Assembly (NCBI GenBank): GCA_964016885.1
Contig: OZ024743.1
Location: 73,284,001-73,348,000 of the forward strand
Reading direction: 5' to 3'
Length of the DNA: 64,000 nucleotides
DNA from: Eledone cirrhosa
Taxonomy: Eukaryota
The notes below the pieces were generated by a model. The model worked only from the letters and a program-made list of their open reading frames with translations. It did no database searches and was not told where the DNA came from. Shown here in pieces: positions 29,630-64,000 of this stretch. The translations under genes were made by a program, and so were the position numbers. Position 1 is the stretch's first letter. The number at the start of each line of letters is the position of its first letter.

Positions 29630-30630
29630 GTGAACAGAGTGTGCTGTTTTGCCTCCATCAAGTAAAGTAGCAGCAATACCACATGATGCAACAGCCAAAG
29701 CAATTTGCTTTCCCTGCCTTACTTTTGCCAATATGAGATTTATTATGAAGGTTTTACCGGTTCCTCATGGGGGATCCAAAAAATAAAGGCCTCCTTCATT
29801 CTGGTCGATACTTTTTCATAAGCAATTCTTTAATTTTCAATCATCTTTTCTTCATTTTCATTGACATATTGTGTAAGCTTGTTGATGTCATAATTCATCT
29901 CCTTTAATATATCCTGCGCAACAGAGTATGCAACTTTGTCCTCAGGTTCTAATAAACCGCAATCCTTAAGGAACCAGTCAATTTCATTCAGGTAGTTGTT
30001 AATTTCTGAAAGTGTTTCATTATAGAAAGGTGGAGAAAAATCTACATTAATACCAGTGTTTTGAAGTTTGATACTGTGTAATATATCTTCCGACAAGTCT
30101 TTCTTGTACCTTTCCCAGAGCCCCAAGGGATCTGAAATATTGCACGTAGTGAGCATTACATCGAAGAACTGTCAAAGCTTTTTAGGCATTTATGTGGCAG
30201 TTGCCTCTTCCAATGTCTTTTTCCCCATCTTCAAGTAGGCCAAGTAATTTACATGCTTCAGTATACGTTGCACAGGGACTTTCATGTACAATTTTGATAT
30301 TTTCAAATGATGTTAGCCCTCAGTGTGAAGGAGTAACCTCAAATGGAAACATTCCCTATGTCTAGGATGGACTGTGTAAACTATTTCTATTGCACCACTT
30401 ACTTTGATGTCTTGATAGCCATCCACATGATTATCTATCTTTCGACTGCTCCATTTCTTTTTAATCCATGTGTAGAATGTGGGAACCTCATGATAAAGCA
30501 AAGTTTTAACAAAGCCATCTTCTCCACAAAATTTTAAAAAAGCATTGAGCATTGTGTCTGGAGGAGACGCAGCAATCAATTGTGTATTATCTTCAGTGTA
30601 ATATATCTGACCATTTTCCAAATGGACTGC
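29630..30630 (-). mobile_element. Helitron Rep/helicase pseudogene fragment
   Basis: VHLENGQ, LLYHEVPTFYTW, VYTVHP...FHLRLLL, then PIF1 motifs FLDPP*GTGKTF and AVASCGIAATLLDGGKTAHS; stops and frameshifts present. Confidence 0.9.
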
Positions 30631-35300: not shown

Positions 35301-35334
35301 CCCTATATAAATTAATGTGCGTTTGAGCGTCTAC

Positions 35335-36283
<949 letters not shown>

Positions 36284-38721: not shown

Positions 38722-39229
38722 ATATATATATATATATAATTATATATACATGCATACATATATATGTGTGTGTGTGTGTATGTATGTATATAATATGTTA
38801 TATTATATTATATTACATTATATTCTTTATCAAATTATTAAAATGGTACAATTATATGAATTGTATTACTTAAATCAAATTATAACAAATTGATATTTAT
38901 ATTATCGAATATGTTTCAGATTATTAAAAGTTAAATTTATATGAATTATGTGAATTGTATTACTTAAAATAAATTAAATCAAATTCATAGTTGTGTTATG
39001 AAATATATTTTAAATTATTAAATTGATATTTGTCCTCTCCGGCTACTCCCAAGTTTATTGGCAACGTATGTGAAATGATATAACTTTAAATAAGATATCA
39101 ATTTTAAATTGCATTAATCAGTCGTCATCCCACGTTTATAAATTATTATTATAGGACACAAAATCTCTATTCTGATATATATATATATATATCAGAATAG
39201 AGATGTTGTGTCCTATAATAATGATTATG

Positions 39230-39287
<58 letters not shown>

Positions 39288-39546
39288 TTTCTTTATTAAC
39301 CACAAGGGTTTACATAAAGTAGACATTAAGGACAGTGCAGGACAATGCAGGACGGTACAAATGGGCATTTCTGCGTGTAAAAAACAAAAACAGAGGATGT
39401 AACAAAAATAACAATGAAAATAACAATGAAAAATTCCCCAATAGGGGGGAGACTTCGGAGGGACATTTGTGGTGAAAGCCCAGTAAAAAGCCACAATGAC
39501 CCTGACCACCTAGGCAAGTGCCCTCTCCCAGTTTTCCACCTTTAAT

Positions 39547-42500
39547 TTACAGATATATACTCAGAGTAGGCCCATTCACTCGGGCCATTCTTGCTTCTCT
39601 CACCCATCTTTCAACAAAATGCTGGGAAGAGAGCACTTCCCTCTCTACTCTGATTTTCCTTTTCAAATGAAATTTGAAAAAGTCAATCAGAGCATCACCG
39701 AAGAGGTAAGTGCTCGTCTTCAGCCCTTTCAAACGTGTCCACCATACTATCTCTTTCACCATGGCCACCAGGCAGATAAAAACTGCCTGCCCTTCCCGGC
39801 TAAAGGAGGAGGGCGGGGCAATCCTCACGATAGACTCAGATGATAGCTGGATCCGTCCTAAACGCGACAGCAGGTGTTCGACATAAACCCACAAGTCAGC
39901 AATTTTCGGACACTGGACGAGTGCGTGCAGGACGGTTTCGTCGCCCTGCGCGCATCTCGGACATGCCCGGCTGACGGCACCTCCATGCCTGTAGAGTTTA
40001 TCCCGAACTGGCAAGGCTCCTCGGTAGCACTGCCAGGCCAGAGATTTCTGGAAGTTGTCCATAGGCCCTGGCCCGAAAGTTCTTCCGAAGAGATTGGCTA
40101 GTTGATTTTCGTCGACGCCTAGAGTTTCCCCAAGTACGTCGTCGCTCTTCCCCTCCACTAATCCTCTATAGAACGCCGAGGTGGAGTTTCCACCGATCAC
40201 ATTGCCCGATTGGTCGAGGGCTGTGAGCGCCTGAAGACATTCCAGTCTCCAGGCGCTCCCTCTCGGTCTTCGCTTGACCCAGGACTGCAGCTCCGTCAAG
40301 GAAACGAGCTGGGGAAAAACGCGTCTAGCAAACGGCGACCACACCTGATCACCGTCGAGGAAGAGGTGGAGATGTCGTAGCCTGAGCGCGTGCCTGCGCA
40401 TCATCAGCCACGGCATGCCCAGCCCTCCACGTAGCGGGTGTTGACAACAGATGGACCGCCTGACCATCGGAGCACGTCCCTTCCACAAAAAGCGAAAGAG
40501 CAAACGCTCCAGCGCAGTCAGGCGAGGCTTAGGACAAGGTACGACGGTTAGGCGGTAGCAGATGACAGACGCGATGTACGCGTTAGCCACCTCCGCTCGA
40601 CCTTTCAGGGATAGCTTCCTCTCCGCCCATTTCTGGGTGAGAGAAGCCACCCTGCTCGTCACCTCGTCCCAGTTTTTGTCCGTCTGGAGGTCCGGACCGA
40701 ACCAGACCCCTAGCAATTTAACCGGTCCGTCCGTCCAGCGCCCGACGACGCTGTTGGACGGCATGGACCTGCCTCTCCAGGTGCCGAGCTGCAGGCCCAC
40801 TGACTTTTCCTGGTTGATCATTGCTCCTGTCACCGCTTCGTATTCTCTTAGTGTAGTGCCGATCGCCTCGATGTGTTTGGCGTTCGACACCACTACGGTG
40901 ACATCGTCCGCATATGCTGACACGGATCTTCCGCATCCTAGTTCGCGCGGGACTCCCCTCAACGTCTCCAGTTTGTGCAGTAATGGCTCGAGAGTCAATA
41001 CGTACAAGAGGGACGAGAGGGGACATCCTTGGCGGACCGAGCGCATGATGTTGAACGGTTCCGACAGGTGACCGTTCACTCTCACCACAGAGCAGATGTC
41101 GCTGTGCATGGCAGCGATCCAGCCTCTGAAGACGGGCCCAAAGCCAGCCGCCCTCAGGACTGCCGCTAGGTAACGATGGTCGACCCTATCGAAAGCTTTC
41201 GACTGATCTAAATTGATCAAGGACCCACCCGTGCCAGGTTCCCTAGCTACCCTCTCTACGATGTATCGCATGAGGTGGAGGTTGTCGTGGATGGATCTGT
41301 CGGGAATGGCGCATGTCTGCGCCTCTCCCACCAGACCACCAACGACAAGCGCCAACCTCTTTGCTAGCACCTTGGCCAAAATCTTAAACTCTGTGTTTAG
41401 CAGAGTTATGGGCCGGAAATTGTCTATGTTATCCCCCTTGTTCGGATCCTTTCTCAGCAGTGCCACCGCTCCTCGGCTCACAGAACTGGGAATTCTCCCG
41501 TTCTGTTGCCAGTTGCAGTAGACGTCCGCCAAGAGGCCTCCGAACAAGTCTGGCATCTGTACGTAAAGTTCATAGGGCAGACCATCCAAACCAGGCGATT
41601 TACCCCTTGTGCAGCCAGTCATTGCCTCCCGTACTTCAGCGGCTGTTATCGGCTTTTCGCAACACTTCGCCTCAGTGGCCGAGAGCCGCGGCAGTCCGTC
41701 GAGGTAGACACTAAAGTCCATCCCTCTACCCGGCCCCCCGCTGCCCCCGAACAGCTGAGCGAAGTGTCGCTGAAAAGCTTCACACATTTGCCCGGGATCG
41801 AGTAGCATGCGCCCGTCGTGGTCCACCAAAGACCGGATCGTGGCTTTGTTGCCACGACGCGCCTCCGCCACTCGGGCCCATTGAACGGCTTTCGTCCCCT
41901 CGTGTCTGAGAGCACGCACCCTAGCTCTGACAACGCAGCCTTCGTGCTTTGCATTGAAGAATTGGTCAAGGGCCAATTTCGCCGCAAGCACGTCGGTCGC
42001 AATGCCTTTGCTAAGCGCCTCGTCTAATTTTCTAACTAGTTCTCCCTCTGCTCTATTTTTCTCTATTGCTAAAGCCTTACTAAACCTAATCGATTCTATT
42101 CTAATCGCTCTTTTCAGAGCAAACCACCACTTGTTGTTGACGATGGCCCCCGTCAACGCCCGCTTAACTAGTTCGCTAATCCGGTCTCTGTAGGCCTTGC
42201 GCGCTGGTAAGGACGCGTTTAGCTTCCAGTAGCCGGGTCCTCGTCTATGAAGCCTATCTAAGTCAAGCACACAGATCACGAATTTGTGGTCCGTGTAGCT
42301 GACTATCTTGAATTGTGGACAGCCTATGCTAGACCTATCTATTTCCCTACAAAATACTCTATCTAGATATGATCTGGATGACCCTATGCGGTTTGTCCAA
42401 GTCCACATTGGCACATTCGGGAAATCCAATCGGTACCTGTCAGACAGTTCAAAACGCCTGAGCAGGTTGGTGAGGCTCTTGCACCCTCCACCCCTATCCG

Positions 42501-42966
42501 CTAATCCCACACAGTCCCAGCGTGCATCTAAGATCCCGTTCCAGTCGCCCACTAACACTAAAGAGCGGGACGTTCCAAGAAAGGTCTCCAGACGCCGGAA
42601 GAAATCAGGCCGCCCTGCTCCTGTCGGGGCATAGACGGCCACTAGCCTGAAAGCTTGCCCGTCTCCGCTGGTCACGTCCAGCACCACCAGCTTACCCTCT
42701 GGGTCCAGGAAGATGGCCCGTATGGCGAGATCCAAACCTCTCCGAAAAAGCACAGCAACTCCTCCACCCGATCCAGGACGGCTGGGAGATGCGTACACAT
42801 CGTAGCCGCCGAAGATCGGTGCGAAGGCCCGTGCTTCGGAGATTCTGGTCTCGCTGATGGCCACTACATCTATGTTTAGTGACCTGAGGTCGTTGAGCAG
42901 GTGACCCTGCTTCCATGACGACCCCAAGCCACGCGCATTTATGCTGCCTATTCTGAGTGAGGTCAT
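39547..42966 (-). CDS. ORF2: APE endonuclease, reverse transcriptase and C-terminal CCHC (Tx1-like)
   Basis: SINARGL, ISET, VYAP, GDWN, YLD, TDH; KSPGLDGL, FRPITLLN, KAFDRVDH, QGCPLS, SAYADD; CPRC...ETVLHALVQC; 1139 aa uninterrupted. Confidence 0.97.
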   Translation of the reverse strand: MTSLRIGSINARGLGSSWKQGHLLNDLRSLNIDVVAISETRISEARAFAPIFGGYDVYASPSRPGSGGGVAVLFRRGLDLAIRAIFLDPEGKLVVLDVTSGDGQAFRLVAVYAPTGAGRPDFFRRLETFLGTSRSLVLVGDWNGILDARWDCVGLADRGGGCKSLTNLLRRFELSDRYRLDFPNVPMWTWTNRIGSSRSYLDRVFCREIDRSSIGCPQFKIVSYTDHKFVICVLDLDRLHRRGPGYWKLNASLPARKAYRDRISELVKRALTGAIVNNKWWFALKRAIRIESIRFSKALAIEKNRAEGELVRKLDEALSKGIATDVLAAKLALDQFFNAKHEGCVVRARVRALRHEGTKAVQWARVAEARRGNKATIRSLVDHDGRMLLDPGQMCEAFQRHFAQLFGGSGGPGRGMDFSVYLDGLPRLSATEAKCCEKPITAAEVREAMTGCTRGKSPGLDGLPYELYVQMPDLFGGLLADVYCNWQQNGRIPSSVSRGAVALLRKDPNKGDNIDNFRPITLLNTEFKILAKVLAKRLALVVGGLVGEAQTCAIPDRSIHDNLHLMRYIVERVAREPGTGGSLINLDQSKAFDRVDHRYLAAVLRAAGFGPVFRGWIAAMHSDICSVVRVNGHLSEPFNIMRSVRQGCPLSSLLYVLTLEPLLHKLETLRGVPRELGCGRSVSAYADDVTVVVSNAKHIEAIGTTLREYEAVTGAMINQEKSVGLQLGTWRGRSMPSNSVVGRWTDGPVKLLGVWFGPDLQTDKNWDEVTSRVASLTQKWAERKLSLKGRAEVANAYIASVICYRLTVVPCPKPRLTALERLLFRFLWKGRAPMVRRSICCQHPLRGGLGMPWLMMRRHALRLRHLHLFLDGDQVWSPFARRVFPQLVSLTELQSWVKRRPRGSAWRLECLQALTALDQSGNVIGGNSTSAFYRGLVEGKSDDVLGETLGVDENQLANLFGRTFGPGPMDNFQKSLAWQCYRGALPVRDKLYRHGGAVSRACPRCAQGDETVLHALVQCPKIADLWVYVEHLLSRLGRIQLSSESIVRIAPPSSFSREGQAVFICLVAMVKEIVWWTRLKGLKTSTYLFGDALIDFFKFHLKRKIRVEREVLSSQHFVERWVREARMARVNGPTLSIYL

Positions 42967-43000
42967 GTTTAAATAGAGTGGAAAAGATGGGAAAGACCAC

Positions 43001-45097
43001 TTACCGTACTTTTGGTAGAGGAGGGATGGTTTTTACATCCCTTTTCACTTGATCGTCTGGTGAAGGGACCGTTGAATCGTCCCTTCGGCTGGTCGTCGGC
43101 TCTTCTAAGAGAATTTCTGAATATAATCTTCGATTGATGGTTCCTCCTAGGTCCCTGAAATCACCAACTGCGTTGGGGAATTTCGTTTTAATATTTGTGT
43201 ATTGTTTCTGTGCTATTTTTAGCAGTCTTATGTTAGTTGGCGTTTTGATTGGTGCTGGTATTATGTAGTCCTGTTGTGAAATGTCTGTGTGTTCAATTAT
43301 GTAAGTCATTAGTTTCTTGTTGTGTGTATTTATTGCCGTGCATTTGTTTTTCTGGGGGTGGGGTGTGGTTCTGCTATTTTCTTGTCGTTGTTGCTGGGTG
43401 TGTGTGTTTTGTTGTTGTGTTTGCGATGTTGGTGCTTGTGGTGGTGGTGTTGAAGGTGTTGTTGGCGGTGGGGTTGTCGCCGGTGGTGATGGTGGCGCTA
43501 GTGTGGGTGGTGATGGTGTTGGTGTTGTTGCTGCTGTGGGTCTCTTTGCAGTAGACTTTACCCTTTTCTCATTTCTTTCCTCCCTTTTCAAAGGCGACGA
43601 TGCGCTGCTTCTGCGTTTGTGCCTTCTTACGACCTTTTGCCATCTCTCTCCCACCTCACACTCCATGTCTGATTCTGTGAGGTCGGGGAGGGGTACCAAC
43701 TCCACTCTTTCACTTGTTGTTGTTGGTGATGTTTGCACTGGAGTCTCTGTTGCAGCTGCATTTGGTATTGCTGTTGTTGTTGTTAGTATTTCCACTGCTG
43801 CTGCTGTTTTTGATTTCCGTGGAGTGGGTATGGGTGCCACGGGCCTATCGTTCCTGGTTGACGCTTGTCCTGTTGCTGGTAGCCGTGGAGCCGGATTCGG
43901 AAGGAGGGGGGTTTTCTCCTTTCTCAGGGTCTTCTCGTTGCAGAAGGCCCTGAGGTGAGTCTTCGATCCACAGCGAAAGCATTTCGGGCGTTTGTCCTCA
44001 ACACTTATGGGCAGTTGAGTGCCGTTATCGAAGTCTATCACATCCGGGATAGCTTCGATGCACTCCTGGTTGGTTTGGATTAGCATCTCAATGGAGGAGC
44101 CGACCCAATCTTCTCTTACTTTTTTCTGTACTTGCAGTACAGTTGTTTTGTCCTCGATTCCGACGAGGACAGACGCGGCCAGCCAAGAAGGGGTCATTCC
44201 GGGGGGGACGTGGGTCAGTTTGACCCTCACAATTTTTTGCCCACAGTAGGAGGGCACCAACACCATTTCCTCGCTCCTTAGGGTCACTACTGATTGGGCC
44301 TTTGCCTCCTGGGGTGTGGCAAAAAGTACGTCTACGGTGGCATATTTTTTGCCTCGGGTGATGTGCGTTTTCCGCTGCCACACAGACCCCAAGGCTTTTT
44401 GTATTTGGGCCTCTGTGGCTCTTTCCACCCTACGGGATTTTGTACTTACTGTACGGTACGTGACCGTACAGTGCTCTTGGGTTTCGAAAAAATTTTTCGC
44501 TGCCTTGCAGATTGCTCGGTGTCCGTTCTTTGTCACCATCTTCTTCGCTTCCTCTAATTCCTCATTTGTTATGAGGATTGTTTCCAAGTTTTTCGCAATA
44601 CCTGCAAATGAGATTGGTTTTTCTCTGCTGTTGTTGTTGTCGTCAGAGCTGCTGCTACTTTTGTTGTTGTTGCAGGTACTACGACTACTGCCTCCGCCGC
44701 TGTTGCTGTAGTTGTTGTTGGTGTTGCTGCTGCTAATGCTGTTGTTGTTTATGCTGCTGGTGATGCTGTTGCGGCTGCTACTGTTGTTTTCATTGTCACT
44801 GTTGCTGTTGTTATTACGGCTGCTACTGCTATTATTCCTGACGTCAGACGAATGAACTGGGTTTTCGTATTTCCCGCACACCTGTTTCGTCGCTGTCGTC
44901 GTCGTCGTGGAGAAACCTTGCACGCTTTGCACGAGACTTTTCTTTTCATTCGTCACTTGCGAAAGAGAAGGGAGGGAGAGAGACACATTTAAAGAAGAGA
45001 GGGCGAGAGACAATCTTCTCTCTGCTGTAGTGATGATTGAGGAAGAAGAAGACGGAATGAGTGGGAGTGACGTATGAAATTTCTTTTTCGTAGCCAT
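43001..45097 (-). CDS. ORF1: gag-like nucleic-acid-binding protein
   Basis: Zinc knuckle CFRCGSKTHLRAFC; N/S-rich and P/T-rich low-complexity segments; 698 aa open, directly upstream of ORF2. Confidence 0.9.
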   Translation of the reverse strand: MATKKKFHTSLPLIPSSSSSIITTAERRLSLALSSLNVSLSLPSLSQVTNEKKSLVQSVQGFSTTTTTATKQVCGKYENPVHSSDVRNNSSSSRNNNSNSDNENNSSSRNSITSSINNNSISSSNTNNNYSNSGGGSSRSTCNNNKSSSSSDDNNNSREKPISFAGIAKNLETILITNEELEEAKKMVTKNGHRAICKAAKNFFETQEHCTVTYRTVSTKSRRVERATEAQIQKALGSVWQRKTHITRGKKYATVDVLFATPQEAKAQSVVTLRSEEMVLVPSYCGQKIVRVKLTHVPPGMTPSWLAASVLVGIEDKTTVLQVQKKVREDWVGSSIEMLIQTNQECIEAIPDVIDFDNGTQLPISVEDKRPKCFRCGSKTHLRAFCNEKTLRKEKTPLLPNPAPRLPATGQASTRNDRPVAPIPTPRKSKTAAAVEILTTTTAIPNAAATETPVQTSPTTTSERVELVPLPDLTESDMECEVGERWQKVVRRHKRRSSASSPLKREERNEKRVKSTAKRPTAATTPTPSPPTLAPPSPPATTPPPTTPSTPPPQAPTSQTQQQNTHTQQQRQENSRTTPHPQKNKCTAINTHNKKLMTYIIEHTDISQQDYIIPAPIKTPTNIRLLKIAQKQYTNIKTKFPNAVGDFRDLGGTINRRLYSEILLEEPTTSRRDDSTVPSPDDQVKRDVKTIPPLPKVR

Positions 45098-45335
45098 GTT
45101 GTTTTTTGTTTAAAATGAAATTTTGGGTACAAAACCCCAATAACTGATTATTTAACCCCGAAGGGCCAAATAACGGACAGAAAGACCCCTCTCACGAGGA
45201 GGAGGGTGTCTTTATCAACAATTTGGTTCAAGTTTTAAACAATTTACAATTGTTTTAACGGTTAAAAATTACTATACCTTACAGAGCCGAGCCTCCGTCA
45301 ACCATGGCATTCAATAATAATAATAATAATAATAA

Positions 45336-48300
45336 GAGTGTTTAAATATCGAACATAAACAGTTCGAATAACGGTGAAATGGAGACTAGAACGTCATGTG
45401 ACAGACTCTCACCCAACAGGTGCCCCCTGGCTCAGCAGCAGGAACCTGACTGTCAACCAAATACTGCTGATGTTGGAGGAAGAAGAAGAAGGAAAGGGGC
45501 CAGAACCAACTGGACGAAAGAATTGAATAGAACTGTTATGCAATGCTACCTGAAAAGTAACGCCAAGGAGAGGGGCTACAGGAGACGGATGCATAACATC
45601 TGGAACGAGATTGGTTTATTTAAATTAGATGAACAAAAATTGGCCGGGCAGGCTCGGGTAATAAGAACTAATGGGTGGATAAGCGAGCTGGAACTGGAGG
45701 AACTGAGCAGAGAGAATGGCTTGGAGATGGCGGGTGTAGTATGCCAGACAAGCGAGCCGGCGGGAAATGAAGGTGAGGAGGTCCTGAGAACGGAGGAACC
45801 ACCCGAAGCAGACAATGATCTGAATACTGAGATAAATAATACCTGGAACAGAGATACGGCCACTGAGGAGATGAATGCTGACGGGCTAGGACAAGATTCG
45901 GTTGACATCCTAAATTTAGTGGTAGATGAGTTGAACAATGATAGTGGGAGACCTATGAACCTAAGATTTGTAGACAGGAAAAAGTTAAAAGAAACAACAG
46001 CTAAGGTAAACAAAGTCATTCCATACCTTGAGGCGAGGAGTCTTCACCAGTGCAACAATATCCTCAAAGCAACAGCAAATACGGTGAGGAAACTACTTGG
46101 TATAAAAGCGAGAGGAAACAACAAACAAGAAAGAGCAGAGCCGTGGTGGAAGAAGCGACTGAGTGGGCAAATCGGGGAAATGAAAAATGACATAGGAAAG
46201 CTTGAGTCACTACTGAATGGGACACTAAAAAACATAGGCACTAAAAATAGACTGGAAATAAAATACAAAACTAGGAGTAAAAAGCTAAATATTATCATAG
46301 AGGAATTGAAGCAACGCATTGTAGCAAAGAGTGCCAAAATCAGGCGATACGAGAACAGAGTCAGTCAGTATAAACAGAACCGCATGTTCGACAACAACCA
46401 GAAGATGCTGTTTGGACAGCTTGAGGGGAAAGAAAGAGGCAACGACTTGATCCCTGGGGCGGAACAAGCTAAAACATTCTGGAGAGGAATATGGGAGCAG
46501 GATGTTAGACACAATGCCCAGGCAGGGTGGATTGAGACAGTACAGAGGGAGATCGGTGAGCAGGCACAACAACAGACTGATTTGAGTATCACAGTTGAAA
46601 CTCTTAAGGGGCAAGCCAAAAAACTAACCAACTGGAAATCACCAGGCCCAGATGGTGTGCAGGGGTATTGGATTAAACATTTAACATCCCTCCACCCGAA
46701 GCTGACGGCCATGTTCAATGACTGCTTGGTGTCGGGTGAGGTGCCAGAGTGGTTGACAAAAGGTACCACAGTTCTGATAATGAAAGACCGAATCAAGGGT
46801 AATGATGTTACCAACTATAGACCTATCACATGTCTGCCCGTAATGTGGAAACTGTTGACGAGCATTGTGTCTGAGGAAATCTACCATCACCTCCACACAA
46901 ACAACTTGTTACCGGACGAACAGAAAGGATGCCGAAAGAAGTCACGTGGTATAAAGGACCAGTTGCTTATTGATAAGATGGTAATGGGGAATTGCAGGAG
47001 GAGACACACTGATCTTGCCATGGGATGGATAGACTACAGAAAGGCATTTGACATGGTGCCTCATTCCTGGATCACCAAAAGCCTGGAGATCTTCAGGGTG
47101 GCAGATAACATCAGACAGTTGCTGGGCAGGAGTATGGGGTCCTGGGAGACAGAGTTGACATCAACTGGAGTATCCTTGGGAAGCGTGAAGATCAAGAGAG
47201 GTATCTTCCAGGGAGATAGCCTGTCCCCTCTGTTGTTTGTCCTTGCCCTGATACCCTTGACCATTATGCTGCGAAAAGTGAGAGCAGGATACAAGTTGGG
47301 AAGGGGAGAGCTTACCATCAATCACCTCCTCTTCATGGACGATCTTAAGCTCTTCGGGAAAAGTGAGAAGGAGTTGGATGTGCTTGTTGACACTGTCCGT
47401 ATTTTCAGCAGTGATATATGTATGCAGTTTGGTATTGGTAAATGTGGAGTCATTGTGATGAAGAGGGGTAGGTTGAGCAGAAGTAACGGGATCCAGATAC
47501 CAACAGGTGAGATGATAAAGGAAATTGACTCTGAGGAAGGATACAAGTATTTGGGCGTTCTGGAGGCTGATGGCATAAAGAACAAAAAAATGAAGGAATT
47601 GTTAAGAACTGAATACATTCGGAGAGTAAGGAGCGTATTGAAGTCACATCTGAACAGCAGAAATGCCATAAGCGCAGTAAATTCCCGAGCTGTGTCTATT
47701 ATTAGGTACAGTGCGGGAATTCTGAGATGGAATGTTGCTGAACAAAAAGAAATGGATAGGAAGACTAGGAAGCTATTGACTATCTACAACATGTTCCACA
47801 AGAGGAGTGATGTCGATAGACTCTACCTCAGGAGATCTGAGGGTGGAAGAGGTCTTATCAGCATAGAGGACTGTGTTCAGATGGAGAAAAACAACCTATA
47901 CAAATACGTGACCTATAGTAAGGAGCCAATGCTCAGAACTGTACTGAAGGAGGGGACAATAGGCCAGGGGATGTCCAAGGAGGAAATAACATCAAGGAGG
48001 AAGAGCAGCCTTAAGGGAAAATCCCTTCATAGTACCTTCTTTGAGAAAACTGAAATTAGAGATCCACAGACATGGAACTGGTTGAGAAGAGGAGACCTCA
48101 GAAAGGCTACAGAAGGAATGCTAATGGCTACGCAGGAGCAGGCCCTCAAAACGAAGTGGTTGAAGCACCATATCTACAAGGAGGAGGCTAGCCCACTGTG
48201 CAGGATCTGTGGAGAGAGAGAGGAGACTGTGGCTCACATTGTGTCCGAGTGTAAACACCTAGCCCAGACCCACTATAAGGGCTGGAGACACGATGTGATG

Positions 48301-48845
48301 GGCAGGGTGATCCACTGGCACCTGTGCAAAGTAAACAATCTACCACATTCTGAGAAATGGTATGAGCATAGGCCAGAGGCGGTGATGGAGAACAGTCAGG
48401 TGAAGGTGCTGTGGGATTTTAGGATACAGACGGACAAAAAACTGGAACACAATAGACCTGACCTGGTGGTTGTGGACAAAGAAAAAAGATCGTGCCTGAT
48501 TGTGGATGTGGCCTGCCCGTTCGACACGAGAGTGCAAGAGAAGGAGAGGGAGAAAATTAACCGATACCAGGACCTAAAGTGGGAGGTGAAAAGGATTTGG
48601 AACTGCCATGAAGTCAAAGTGATCCCGATTGTCATAGGCGCACTGGGGACTATCTCCAAAGGTTTCCAGGGATGGTTAAAGAAAATCGGCCCCTTCACGC
48701 TTTTTGGAACGCTTCAAAAGGCATGCTTGCTTGGAACAGCAAGAACCCTCCGATACGTCCTGAATATCTGAGGCTGCAGGTAGTGGCTTGATATTCAATC
48801 CAACGGACTTTCCAGTTAACCAACATCAATGACTGAGATTCAAGG
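45336..48845 (+). mobile_element. R4-clade (Dong-like) non-LTR retrotransposon in (TAA)n
   Basis: Single RT-REL ORF flanked by (AAT)n at 45313-45335 and 48846-48896; Dong elements are known TAA-repeat-specific R4 elements. Confidence 0.92.
45379..48771 (+). CDS. RT with CCHC and restriction-like endonuclease (R4/Dong)
   Basis: WKSPGPDG, NYRPITCL, EQKGC, IDYRKAFD, FQGDSLSP, LFMDD; CRIC...H...C, RHD, RPDLVVVD...VDVACP, EKINRY; 1130 aa uninterrupted. Confidence 0.97.
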   Translation: METRTSCDRLSPNRCPLAQQQEPDCQPNTADVGGRRRRKGARTNWTKELNRTVMQCYLKSNAKERGYRRRMHNIWNEIGLFKLDEQKLAGQARVIRTNGWISELELEELSRENGLEMAGVVCQTSEPAGNEGEEVLRTEEPPEADNDLNTEINNTWNRDTATEEMNADGLGQDSVDILNLVVDELNNDSGRPMNLRFVDRKKLKETTAKVNKVIPYLEARSLHQCNNILKATANTVRKLLGIKARGNNKQERAEPWWKKRLSGQIGEMKNDIGKLESLLNGTLKNIGTKNRLEIKYKTRSKKLNIIIEELKQRIVAKSAKIRRYENRVSQYKQNRMFDNNQKMLFGQLEGKERGNDLIPGAEQAKTFWRGIWEQDVRHNAQAGWIETVQREIGEQAQQQTDLSITVETLKGQAKKLTNWKSPGPDGVQGYWIKHLTSLHPKLTAMFNDCLVSGEVPEWLTKGTTVLIMKDRIKGNDVTNYRPITCLPVMWKLLTSIVSEEIYHHLHTNNLLPDEQKGCRKKSRGIKDQLLIDKMVMGNCRRRHTDLAMGWIDYRKAFDMVPHSWITKSLEIFRVADNIRQLLGRSMGSWETELTSTGVSLGSVKIKRGIFQGDSLSPLLFVLALIPLTIMLRKVRAGYKLGRGELTINHLLFMDDLKLFGKSEKELDVLVDTVRIFSSDICMQFGIGKCGVIVMKRGRLSRSNGIQIPTGEMIKEIDSEEGYKYLGVLEADGIKNKKMKELLRTEYIRRVRSVLKSHLNSRNAISAVNSRAVSIIRYSAGILRWNVAEQKEMDRKTRKLLTIYNMFHKRSDVDRLYLRRSEGGRGLISIEDCVQMEKNNLYKYVTYSKEPMLRTVLKEGTIGQGMSKEEITSRRKSSLKGKSLHSTFFEKTEIRDPQTWNWLRRGDLRKATEGMLMATQEQALKTKWLKHHIYKEEASPLCRICGEREETVAHIVSECKHLAQTHYKGWRHDVMGRVIHWHLCKVNNLPHSEKWYEHRPEAVMENSQVKVLWDFRIQTDKKLEHNRPDLVVVDKEKRSCLIVDVACPFDTRVQEKEREKINRYQDLKWEVKRIWNCHEVKVIPIVIGALGTISKGFQGWLKKIGPFTLFGTLQKACLLGTARTLRYVLNI

Positions 48846-48857
48846 AATAACAATAAC

Positions 48858-48897
<40 letters not shown>

Positions 48898-52350: not shown

Positions 52351-54067
52351 ATACTTGGGGAGGGTCATATTTGTGTAATATTGCCAGAATTAATAACAGA
52401 ACACACTCACTGTTTGGTTGGTTTTCGCTTTTCGCTTCTGTGTCTTTTATATCGGTAATCTAATTTATTCGGTCCTCAATGTTGCCATTGACTGACCAAC
52501 GGTCAAAAATAATACAGATACAATATAGACACAAACACATATATATAGTTTATCAAAGTTCTTTCGTTGCACATCTGCAACATCGTCAGTGGTGCTATTG
52601 TTTCCTCCCGTTGCATTGTATCTCCTACGCCATCTTTATTTAGTCTGTTTATATATTTATTTATTTGTTTATTTTTTATTTTTTTGTCTTCTTTGCGCAT
52701 GCGTTTGCGTGTGTGTATAGTGTTTTGTTTGATGTGTGTTCGTGATTGGGTGACTGTGTATTGGTTAATGTATTCTATCCTTACTAGTGTGTGTTTATAT
52801 GTGTTTGTTGTTATTGTGCTTGTGTATGTATTTATTTATTTATCTATTTATTTATTTATTTATACTTCTCTTAGGTCAGTGTTGTTGTTATTCCATTCAT
52901 TCTTTCTGTTTAGCCTTGGCCTTCTAAGTTCTATTTCACTGGCCTCTCTGATTTGCCTATCTGCTGGGTCATTTCTATGTTTAGATATTATTCTAATTTC
53001 TATGTTGTCTATGTTACCGTCATGTTGTTGTCTGGCATGTTCGTATAGTACTGACCCGTTTTTTCGTCCTTTTAGTTCCCCCCAGTGTTGGTCTATCCTT
53101 TCACCTATGCTACGAGCTGTCTCGCCTATGTATGTTGTTGTCATGTTTCTGCAAGTACCCTCTGTATATCTTATGCTATAGACTACGTTTCTAGTTTTAA
53201 AACTACAAACCTAGTCTATAGCATAAGATGTACAGAGGGTACTTGCAGAAACACGACAACAACATACATAGGCGAGACAGCTCGTAGCATAGGTGAAAGG
53301 ATAGACCAACACTGGGGGGAACTAAAAGGACGAAAAAACGGGTCAGTACTATACGAACATGCCAGACAACCACACGACGGTAAGATAGACAACATAGAAT
53401 TTAGAATAATATCTAAACATAGAAATGACCCAGCAGGTAGGCAAATCAGAGAGGCCAGTGAAATAGAACTTAGAAGGCCAAGGCTAAACAGAAAAAAATG
53501 AATGGAATAACAACAACACCCAAACAAAAAACACTGACCTAAGAGAAGTATAAATAAATAAATAAATAGATAAATAAATAAATACATACACAATCACAAT
53601 AACAACAAACACATATAAACACACACTAGTAAAGATAGAATACATTAACCAATACACAGCCACCCAATCACGAACACACATCAAACAAAACACTATGCAC
53701 ACACGCAAACGCATGCGCAAAGAAGACAAAAAAAAAACAAAAAATAAAAAATAAACAAATAAATAAATATATAAACAGACTAAATAAAGATGGCGTAGGA
53801 GATACAATGTAACGGGAGGAAACAATAGCACCACTGACGATGTTGCAGATGTGCAACGAAAGAACTTTGATAAACTATATATATGTTTGTGTCTATATTG
53901 TATCTGTATTATTTTTGACCGTTGGTCAGTCAATGGCAACATTGAGGACCGAATAAATTAAATTAACCGATATAAAAGACACAGAAGCGAAAAGCGAAAA
54001 CCAACCAAACAGTGAGTGTGTTCTGTTATTAATTCTGGCAATATTACACAAATATGACCCTCCCCAA

Positions 54068-63394: not shown

Positions 63395-64000
63395 AGGGCG
63401 GCTAAAATTCGTGAGATCCATGGACGAGTTCTCTCCAGCGGTCTCTGTCCCTCATTATCGCTGCCATGTCCTGCGTCTCCAATAGACCAGTGTCTGTCCT
63501 TAGGGCATCAACATACATTAACCTTGGTCTTCCTCTTCCAGTGTGTCCATACAGGGGCTCCCACAGGAGCACTGAGTGCAGTGTCAACTCTGGATGTCGG
63601 TGAGCATGTCCAGCTAACCTCAATCTCCTCTGTGTCACTTTTGAGCTGAATTTTGGGTGGCTCCCATACAGCTCTGAGGAGAGGAAGGAGAATGTGGAAG
63701 TGATGAGGAAAGAACTCTGTACCAGAGAGACCAGAGAGGAGGCACTGATCGAGAAGATCAGAAGTGTGGAGAGAGCGGTTGGCAGGTCTGGATGTAAAGA
63801 GAGCTGGATGATCATCAACGAGATTACAGGGAGGAACAGAAGGTGTTCGAGTCAGATCCAGGGAACAGGGCCCGAGGATAGGAACGGGAAATGGCTAGAC
63901 CATTTCAGGACCCTACTAGGAGAGCCGCCCTCCACAGCCCAGAACACTGGGGAGATCAGGCGGCTGTTTGAAGAACTGGATATTGAGACAAAGCCCTTCA
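63395..64000 (-). mobile_element. RTE 3' end (-) joined to an inverted upstream segment (+) that runs off the window
   Basis: 63395-63678 matches the RTE C-terminus; 63678-64000 reads on + as ...ESWMIINEITGR...WLDHFRTLLGEPP...ETKPF, resembling an EN-RT linker. Confidence 0.85.

What the first reader, a model, noticed from the sequence alone, without database searches (positions are those of the whole stretch)
39220..48896. Two intact LINEs with different endonucleases, head-to-head inside one (AAT)n microsatellite
Seen: (AAT)n, then a Tx1-type element (-), 23 bp of (AAT)n (45313-45335), a Dong-type element (+), and (AAT)n again. All three ORFs are uninterrupted while every other transposon in the window is decayed, and the start codons are only ~280 bp apart and divergent. 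Established: Dong (R4 clade, REL endonuclease) targets TAA repeats. Inference: an APE-endonuclease and a REL-endonuclease element have converged on the same microsatellite in opposite orientations. The 43-bp Dong 5' UTR suggests it could borrow bidirectional promoter activity from its neighbour, giving a co-expressed pair.
Basis: partly seen in the sequence, partly recalled or inferred. Interest (0 to 1): 0.75.

Follow-up and report, generated by a model that had tools for sequence, protein, structure and literature searches.

The report
Chance pairing on shared AAT target
Two young, unrelated jumping-gene families both sit in AAT repeats facing opposite ways, so head-to-head pairs like this one are common in the genome, occur about as often as random sharing of the repeats predicts, and likely are not a co-expressed unit.

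Summary
The anatomy is real: a Tx1/L1-type element (-, ORFs of 698 and 1139 aa, APE-RT) and a Dong/R4-type element (+, 1130 aa, RT-RLE) meet head-to-head across 23 bp of (AAT)n. The shared target is real too: 68 of 70 full Tx1 heads follow 3 or more ATT units, and Dong uses the AAT strand. The pair itself is not special. Of 70 Tx1 heads, 19 face a Dong. Head-to-head and tail-to-tail pairs are equally common (11 vs 10 of 51 copies). Genome-wide, 44 of 1,359 full Dong heads face a Tx1 head; 32-49 are expected from random tract sharing. The '43-bp 5' UTR' is a 5' truncation: full copies carry about 1.07 kb. Of 7 copies with this breakpoint only this one has a Tx1 neighbour, and no descendants were seen. 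Intact ORFs fit youth (0.4-0.6% divergence; 20 of 51 Tx1 copies intact). Transcription could not be tested. What remains is an (ATT)n-seeking Tx1-like family sharing a microsatellite with Dong on the opposite strand, like TRAS/SART at telomeres. I did not find it in the papers searched, but this scan has already reported it at least 8 times on other DNA of this genome.

The parts
39215..39285 (.). (AAT)n tract: target remainder and 3' tail of the Tx1-type element (reads ATT on its strand)
39286..45312 (-). Full-length Tx1/L1-type LINE, 6.03 kb; member of a young family (1,604 exact 5' ends, 6,296 exact 3' ends); 0.60% from the majority of young copies
39292..39297 (-). AATAAA polyadenylation-like signal 6 nt before the element's 3' end (function inferred)
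   Evidence: sequence
39547..42966 (-). ORF2, 1139 aa: APE endonuclease (NARG, SET, GDWN, TDH), RT (YADD), C-terminal CCHC; best solved relative is LINE-1 ORF2p (E 3e-52)
43001..45097 (-). ORF1, 698 aa, one CX2CX4HX4C knuckle at aa 373, low-complexity N and C parts; no Pfam family above cut-off
45098..45312 (-). Tx1 5' UTR, 215 nt, with the same first bases in full-length copies; internal promoter inferred, not shown
45313..45335 (.). 23-bp (AAT)n between the two heads; typical of the tract left upstream of Tx1 heads (median 27 nt)
45336..48845 (+). Dong/R4-type LINE, 5'-truncated inside its 5' UTR at an internal AATAA microhomology; lacks about 1,030 nt of the full 5' UTR; family has 4,446 exact 3' ends and 1,359 exact full heads; 0.43% from the majority of young copies
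45379..48771 (+). Single ORF, 1130 aa: RT (FMDD), CCHC at aa 941, RHD at 970, RLE-like C-terminal region aligning to R2 protein; best solved relatives are R2 proteins (E 2e-30)
48846..48897 (.). Dong 3' tail (AATAAC-interrupted start, as in many family copies) plus (AAT)n target remainder

Best explanation
Two unrelated young LINE families sit in the same AAT microsatellites in opposite orientations throughout this genome, and this locus is most likely two independent insertions into one tract, the Dong copy having lost most of its 5' UTR, likely during integration. Shown: the Tx1-type family lies with (ATT)n on its sense strand at both ends, the Dong-type family with (AAT)n, so neighbours are opposite, head-to-head or tail-to-tail in equal measure. 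Inferred from established LINE biology (target-primed reverse transcription, endonuclease sets the site): the APE nicks the AAT strand and the RLE the ATT strand; each insertion leaves repeat on both sides, so elements stack; premature 5' joining at an internal AATAA that matches the target gave the 43-nt leader. The ORFs are likely intact because both copies are recent. The truncated Dong is likely silent or only passively read through. Which element came first is not determined.
For: Targeting: 68 of the first 70 exact Tx1 heads on contig C1 follow 3 or more ATT units; the others follow 2 units or a tract with one mismatch. 23 of 31 ORF-truncated Dong copies have (AAT)4 within 36 nt upstream. 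Polarity: at 70 Tx1 heads, Dong opposite 19, Dong same 0; at 30 Tx1 tails, Dong opposite 11, same 0; 50 sampled tracts gave only forward Dong and reverse Tx1 neighbours. No head bias: in 51 of 60 copies with both ends found, Dong lies at the head in 11 and at the tail in 10; discordant 9 vs 8, p=1.0. Chance level: 19 of 70 heads vs 9 of 50 random tracts with a Dong head, p=0.28. Genome-wide, 44 of 1,359 full Dong heads face a Tx1 head, expected 48.7 with 44,770 tracts (p=0.56). 8 of 50 Dong tails face a Tx1 tail, expected 7.0; head/tail rate ratio 0.79. Truncation: full heads start about 1.06-1.09 kb before the ATG, up to about 1.5 kb with internal duplications, and breakpoints are scattered among 30 copies. 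7 of 2,546 copies share this breakpoint and only the window copy has a Tx1 upstream. Independence: close junctions on C1, C3, C4 and C6 have four different Dong breakpoints; the C3, C4 and C6 pairs have different flanks, and no variants are shared only between the window and C6 copies. Youth: both Tx1 ORFs are intact in 20 of 51 copies; 5 of 11 head-to-head vs 15 of 40 others, p=0.73.
Against: With the largest tract count (68,249, which counts some tracts twice), head-to-head pairs are 1.4-fold in excess (p=0.04); tail-to-tail pairs are 1.7-fold in excess on the same count (p=0.13). The random-tract sample is small and comes from the first 10.5 Mb of C1 only (50 of the first 53 listed). An intact Dong ORF is uncommon (2 of 20), yet it is intact here, in the C6 close pair (all three ORFs intact; picked by similarity) and in 3 of 9 assessable unbiased head-to-head pairs (a tenth region cut the ORF off). 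Only 4 of 7 5'-truncated Tx1 copies have (ATT)n upstream, and 2 sit on (TTC)n, so part of the ATT at full-length heads may be copied with the RNA. Cleavage strand and site were not assayed. This junction was not checked with reads: no contig spanned it and the tool skipped the repeat.
Confidence: 0.85

Rival explanations
1. The pair is a functional unit: an antisense or bidirectional promoter in the Tx1 5' UTR drives the UTR-less but intact Dong ORF.
For: Start codons are 281 bp apart. All three ORFs are intact here and in the C6 close pair. Bombyx Dong self-cleaves from a co-transcript by an HDV-like ribozyme, so Dong-type elements can use outside transcription (PMC3774820 passages). Human L1 has an antisense promoter (recalled).
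Against: No excess of head-to-head over tail-to-tail pairs. 96.8% of full Dong heads have no exact Tx1 head within 100 nt. The Dong ORF is broken in the C3 and C1 close pairs. No descendants of the window copy were seen. The short UTR is a truncation.
Confidence: 0.07
2. The Tx1-type element is not strictly target-specific: it makes its own (ATT)n tail and co-copies upstream ATT, and lands in low-complexity pyrimidine-rich repeats generally.
For: Of 7 truncated copies, 2 sit on (TTC)n and 1 on non-repeat DNA; one short copy lies in (ACT)n (L168).
Against: Upstream of the ATT tract the neighbours are many unrelated sequences, including 19 Dong heads cut at different positions, so the tract was there independently of a donor Tx1. 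4 of 7 truncated copies still have ATT upstream. Polarity relative to Dong is strict.
Confidence: 0.1
3. The junction is an assembly join at the AAT tract.
For: No contig from four public runs spanned it, but the tool skips repeats.
Against: The tract is only 23 bp. 44 other head-to-head junctions with full Dong heads and several with truncated heads exist, with varied breakpoints, short 5' duplications and fixed polarity, which a mis-join would not give.
Confidence: 0.03

Closest known systems
TRAS and SART of Bombyx mori (telomeric (TTAGG)n; PMC7265360, passages read)
   Same: Two LINE families insert into one simple repeat in opposite orientations, each endonuclease selecting one strand.
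   Different: TRAS and SART both carry an APE endonuclease (R1 clade, recalled) and lie at telomeres. Here an APE element and an RLE element share dispersed (AAT)n tracts.
Dong (R4 clade; B. mori, Darwinula Dong1/2; PMC7998251 and PMC3774820 passages)
   Same: Single ORF with RT and C-terminal RLE, no N-terminal zinc finger detected, (TAA)n target as stated for most insects, molluscs and cnidarians; head-to-tail stacks.
   Different: The 5' UTR is about 1.07 kb. The HDV-like 5' ribozyme of Bombyx Dong was not detected (inconclusive). The window copy is 5'-truncated.
Microsatellite-specific Tx1-clade LINEs: Kibi (TC)n, Koshi (TTC)n, crocodilian (TTCC)n/(TTTC)n families (PMC4494074 passages)
   Same: APE-RT element with strong microsatellite preference, far above that paper's 20% criterion.
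   Different: The target is (ATT)n, not listed in the passages read; it is shared with an RLE element on the opposite strand.
Recently active Dong-R4 and L1-Tx1 families of Octopus vulgaris (PMC13282606 passages)
   Same: Both classes are listed there as recently active (5 families with 1,129 insertions; 13 families with 421). The host here is probably an octopod (my guess and earlier notes; not tested).
   Different: The passages returned say nothing on target sites, orientation or stacking.

Membership tests
Tx1 clade (L1 group) | Two ORFs; ORF1 with a gag-like CCHC knuckle | tested here: met
   ORF1 698 aa with CX2CX4HX4C at aa 373; ORF2 follows 34 nt after its stop
Tx1 clade (L1 group) | ORF2 = APE + RT + C-terminal CCHC, closer to L1 than to R2 | tested here: met
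   Pfam Exo_endo_phos, RVT_1, zf-RVT; PDB L1 ORF2p E 3e-52 over aa 5-854 vs R2 E 1e-21
Tx1 clade (L1 group) | Target preference for a repeat (over 20% of flanks, PMC4494074) | tested here: met
   68 of 70 heads after 3 or more ATT units; 4 of 7 truncated copies
Tx1 clade (L1 group) | RT phylogeny inside Tx1 rather than L1 proper | not testable with these tools
   None of the 33 homologs carried a name and no named Tx1 reference was obtained; the label Tx1 rests on architecture and targeting
R4/Dong clade | Single ORF with RT and C-terminal CCHC + RHD + PD-(D/E)xK-type endonuclease | tested here: met
   CCHC at 941, RHD at 970, EKINRY at 1058; aa 1018-1091 align to the R2 endonuclease region, weakly on their own (E 0.057), whole protein E 2e-30. 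My PD-D regex was too short and missed the site, which is visible in that alignment.
R4/Dong clade | (TAA)n target on the sense strand | tested here: met
   23 of 31 truncated copies with (AAT)4 upstream, 0 with the opposite strand; all 30 tails examined run into AAT
R4/Dong clade | No N-terminal zinc finger; divergent Myb/SANT-like domain (PMC7998251) | tested here: inconclusive
   Pfam found neither a zinc finger nor Myb at the N-terminus; no profile-profile search was run
R4/Dong clade | HDV-like self-cleaving ribozyme at the 5' end (shown for Bombyx Dong) | tested here: inconclusive
   No Rfam ribozyme at E<=1 in 4 loci; home-made descriptor fit 0 of 22 heads but had no positive control
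R4/Dong clade | RT phylogeny with Dong/R4 | not testable with these tools
   162 homologs, the 120 listed without informative names
Bidirectional-promoter pair | Head-to-head arrangement enriched over tail-to-tail and over chance | tested here: not met
   11 vs 10 of 51; 44 observed vs 32-49 expected; rate ratio 0.79
Bidirectional-promoter pair | Divergent transcription from the shared interval | not testable with these tools
   No RNA holder listed; only contigs could be laid

The most novel reading that the evidence does not exclude
The (AAT)n tracts host a self-feeding, strand-polarised guild of an APE LINE, an RLE LINE and short passengers. In it, the Tx1 5' UTR also fires antisense and supplies read-through transcription to a Dong that lacks its own promoter, so that the hundreds of head-to-head junctions that arise by chance become Dong's source loci: cross-clade promoter parasitism created by a shared target.
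Probability: 0.08. Interest if true: 0.65.

Novelty: new variant of a known kind. Interest (0 to 1): 0.33.

Why it matters
The locus itself is ordinary for this genome. The family-level result has modest value. An (ATT)n-seeking Tx1-like LINE adds a target to the known list. Its sharing of one microsatellite with an RLE element on the opposite strand is a dispersed, cross-clade version of TRAS/SART, and helps explain stacked LINE arrays and AAT tracts in this genome (14 of 50 sampled tracts follow a Dong tail). Both families have intact young copies, so their endonuclease specificities can be assayed. If antisense transcription from the Tx1 head drove Dong, it would be a new kind of dependence between unrelated transposons, but nothing found here points to it.

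Tried and rejected
(1) Expression: no RNA holder listed; this is no evidence either way. Contigs of 4 runs laid on the junction did not span it because the tool skipped the repeat. (2) Splicing idea: a canonical donor overlaps the ORF1 stop and an AG 52 nt on would fuse ORF1 to ORF2 in frame; the Dong 5' UTR also has donor- and acceptor-like sites. Short-gap pattern searches found 0 genomic copies for each, and no such joint appeared in contigs of 4 runs of unknown kind; left open. (3) Ribozyme: Rfam and a descriptor scan were negative, the latter without a positive control. (4) Co-mobilisation of the pair: rejected, as breakpoints and flanks differ and no private variants are shared. (6) Clade placement by named homologs failed. 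(7) One search mislabelled 3' neighbours because my reference was 2 nt short; redone, whose numbers are used. Neighbour labels depend on a two-sequence library, so older Dong subfamilies can be missed (L065 is a 20th head-to-head case seen). (8) Insertion order: tract lengths and divergence do not decide it. (9) Literature: seven searches listed no paper whose title or abstract start describes an (ATT)n-specific Tx1 or a Tx1-Dong shared target. Kojima and Fujiwara 2004, Repbase and all supplements were not seen and may bear on this.
Full report
Observation. The window shows (AAT)n at 39215-39285, a minus-strand element at 39286-45312, 23 bp of (AAT)n at 45313-45335, a plus-strand element at 45336-48845 and (AAT)n at 48846-48897. 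The minus element has ORF1 (698 aa, one CCHC knuckle) and ORF2 (1139 aa; APE, RT, zf-RVT; best PDB match LINE-1 ORF2p, E 3e-52). The plus element has one ORF of 1130 aa with RT, CCHC, RHD and a C-terminal region aligning to the R2 endonuclease (best PDB match R2, E 2e-30). The start codons are 281 bp apart. The names Tx1 and Dong rest on architecture and target; no tree with named references was possible. The window lies on contig C4 of a 3.0-Gb assembly. The host is probably an octopod, which is my guess and that of earlier notes and was not tested.

Both families are large and young. Exact pattern counts: 1,604 Tx1 heads, 6,296 Tx1 tails, 4,446 Dong tails, 2,546 Dong copies with the stretch just before the ATG and 1,359 full Dong heads. 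The window copies differ from the majority of young copies by 0.60% (Tx1) and 0.43% (Dong). Both Tx1 ORFs are intact in 20 of 51 full-length copies (60 fetched; 9 had no 3' end located), and the Dong ORF in 2 of 20. Intactness here is therefore expected for Tx1 and less common, but not rare, for Dong.

Shared target and polarity. Of the first 70 exact Tx1 heads on C1, 68 follow three or more ATT units directly. Beyond the tract lies a Dong in opposite orientation in 19, a Tx1-like tail in the same orientation within 150 nt in 26, neither in 25, and a same-orientation Dong in none. At 30 Tx1 tails a Dong tail faces the element in 11. At 30 Dong tails a Tx1-like tail was scored in 10 (one a weak 35-nt hit, one a 69% relative) and another Dong head in 7. 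5'-truncated Dong copies have (AAT)4 upstream in 23 of 31; truncated Tx1 copies have (ATT)4 in 4 of 7, with 2 on (TTC)n. The two families thus read opposite strands of one microsatellite, and any two neighbours are opposite.

Is head-to-head special? In the 51 copies with both ends, Dong lies at the head in 11 and at the tail in 10 (discordant 9 vs 8, p=1.0). In 50 AAT tracts (of the first 53 listed on C1; three lying within 250 bp of another were skipped), 9 carry a Dong head and 14 a Dong tail; 19 of 70 against 9 of 50 gives p=0.28. Genome-wide, 44 of 1,359 full Dong heads face an exact Tx1 head within 100 nt. With 44,770 tracts 48.7 are expected (p=0.56). With an upper count of 68,249, which counts some tracts twice, 31.9 are expected (p=0.04), but then tail-to-tail is in similar excess (8 of 50 vs 4.6). 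The head/tail rate ratio, which does not depend on the tract count, is 0.79. Tx1 intactness does not differ between head-to-head copies and others (5 of 11 vs 15 of 40, p=0.73). Against my reading, the Dong ORF was intact in 3 of 9 assessable unbiased head-to-head pairs versus 2 of 20 in general; the numbers are small, and in two of the three the Tx1 partner is a fragment or an old deleted copy.

The 43-bp UTR. Full Dong copies start about 1.06-1.09 kb upstream of the ATG at a fixed purine-rich head, up to about 1.5 kb where a 330-nt UTR segment is duplicated. Among 30 copies, at least 8 start at this head and most of the rest break at scattered UTR positions. The window copy breaks at an internal AATAA that matches the target. 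Seven copies share this breakpoint after (AAT)3, and only the window copy has a Tx1 upstream. Three junctions of the close type match an exact pattern (C3, C4 = window, C6), and a fourth with a variant Tx1 head lies on C1 (L318). All four have different Dong breakpoints, and the C3, C4 and C6 pairs have different flanks. The C6 pair also has all three ORFs intact; the C3 and C1 pairs have broken Dong ORFs. The window copies share no variants exclusively with the C6 copies, nor the Dong with any of 7 young copies compared. The pair was therefore not copied as a unit and shows no offspring among the copies examined.

Mechanism. Shown: strand-specific association, stacking, truncation and chance-level pairing. 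Established: target choice in these elements is set mainly by the endonuclease (PMC4494074, passages); TRAS and SART enter one repeat in opposite directions (PMC7265360, passages); Dong targets (TAA)n (PMC7998251, passages). Inferred: the APE nicks the AAT strand and the RLE the ATT strand; each insertion leaves repeat on both sides and so renews the target; two separate events hit this tract, in unknown order. Bombyx Dong is cut from a co-transcript by an HDV-like ribozyme (PMC3774820, passages and section 16), so outside promoters are plausible for Dong in general. I found no such ribozyme here (inconclusive), and the window copy has lost the region that would hold it or a promoter. No RNA run was listed, so divergent transcription is untested.

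Comparison and novelty. Known microsatellite-specific Tx1 families use (TC)n, (TTC)n, (TTCC)n or (TTTC)n. Dong-R4 and L1-Tx1 are listed as recently active in Octopus vulgaris (PMC13282606, passages), and a full-length Dong in O. bimaculoides showed no recent activity (PMC9115989, passages). PMC4640811 (passages) gave background only. Seven searches listed nothing on an (ATT)n Tx1 or a Tx1-Dong shared target; subscription papers, Repbase and supplements were not seen. This scan already holds at least 8 notes on the same family-level pattern in this genome and none holding all the promoter-related words. Verdict: a new variant of a known kind at family level; the head-to-head pair is a chance product, and the co-expression idea is unsupported though untested directly. 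Interest 0.33.

Noticed in passing
window 42951-43002 (-): A canonical 5' splice donor overlaps the Tx1 ORF1 stop codon, followed by a pyrimidine tract and an AG 14 nt into ORF2; removal would fuse ORF1 to ORF2 in frame. The donor-like motif is present in nearly all of 36 distinct junctions, including a sister family at 68% protein identity. No spliced genomic copy and no joint in contigs.
   Followed up: partly
L006, L034, L084 and other full Dong heads: The full Dong 5' UTR has a donor-like site about 47 nt from the start and a T-rich tract ending in AG about 130 nt before the ATG; no spliced copy found. A 330-nt UTR segment is tandemly repeated up to four times (L357).
   Followed up: partly
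G000:C3:316.82-316.86 Mb (L021-L025, L043-L046); C4:336.76 Mb; C1:118.96 Mb: Head-to-tail arrays of full-length Tx1 copies at about 6.06-kb spacing, at least six in a row on C3, separated by short ATT tracts.
   Followed up: partly
many loci, e.g. L214, L232, L059: Three other repeats share these tracts: two whose ends run into AAT in Dong's orientation (14 of 14 and 10 of 12 distinct ends) and one ending in ATT in Tx1's orientation (35 of 58 with three perfect units). Earlier notes call the last a SINE; I did not classify them.
   Followed up: partly
L174, L177/L056, L168, L038, L244: Truncated or older Tx1-like copies on (TTC)n and (ACT)n, and sister families at 63-76% identity, suggest relaxed or shifted targets.
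   Followed up: no
window 39140-39225: An inverted repeat with arms of about 33 nt around a (TA)n run lies directly left of the first AAT tract; no match among the loci fetched.
   Followed up: partly
window 45290-45298 (-) and full Dong heads: The young Tx1 and young Dong heads share a 9-nt word within their first 30 nt; it is absent from older Dong heads, so probably chance.
   Followed up: no
window 29830-30156, 35331-36008, 53216-53587, 63402-63815: Short decayed ORF remnants that look like Helitron, RTE and (on the other strand) Penelope pieces; labels recalled, not tested.
   Followed up: no
window 42700-45300, runs X7, X10, X16: Contigs filed under three other coded organisms hold this Tx1 family, up to about 99% identity (X7: 7 differences in 930 nt), so it is shared with other species or samples.
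   Followed up: no
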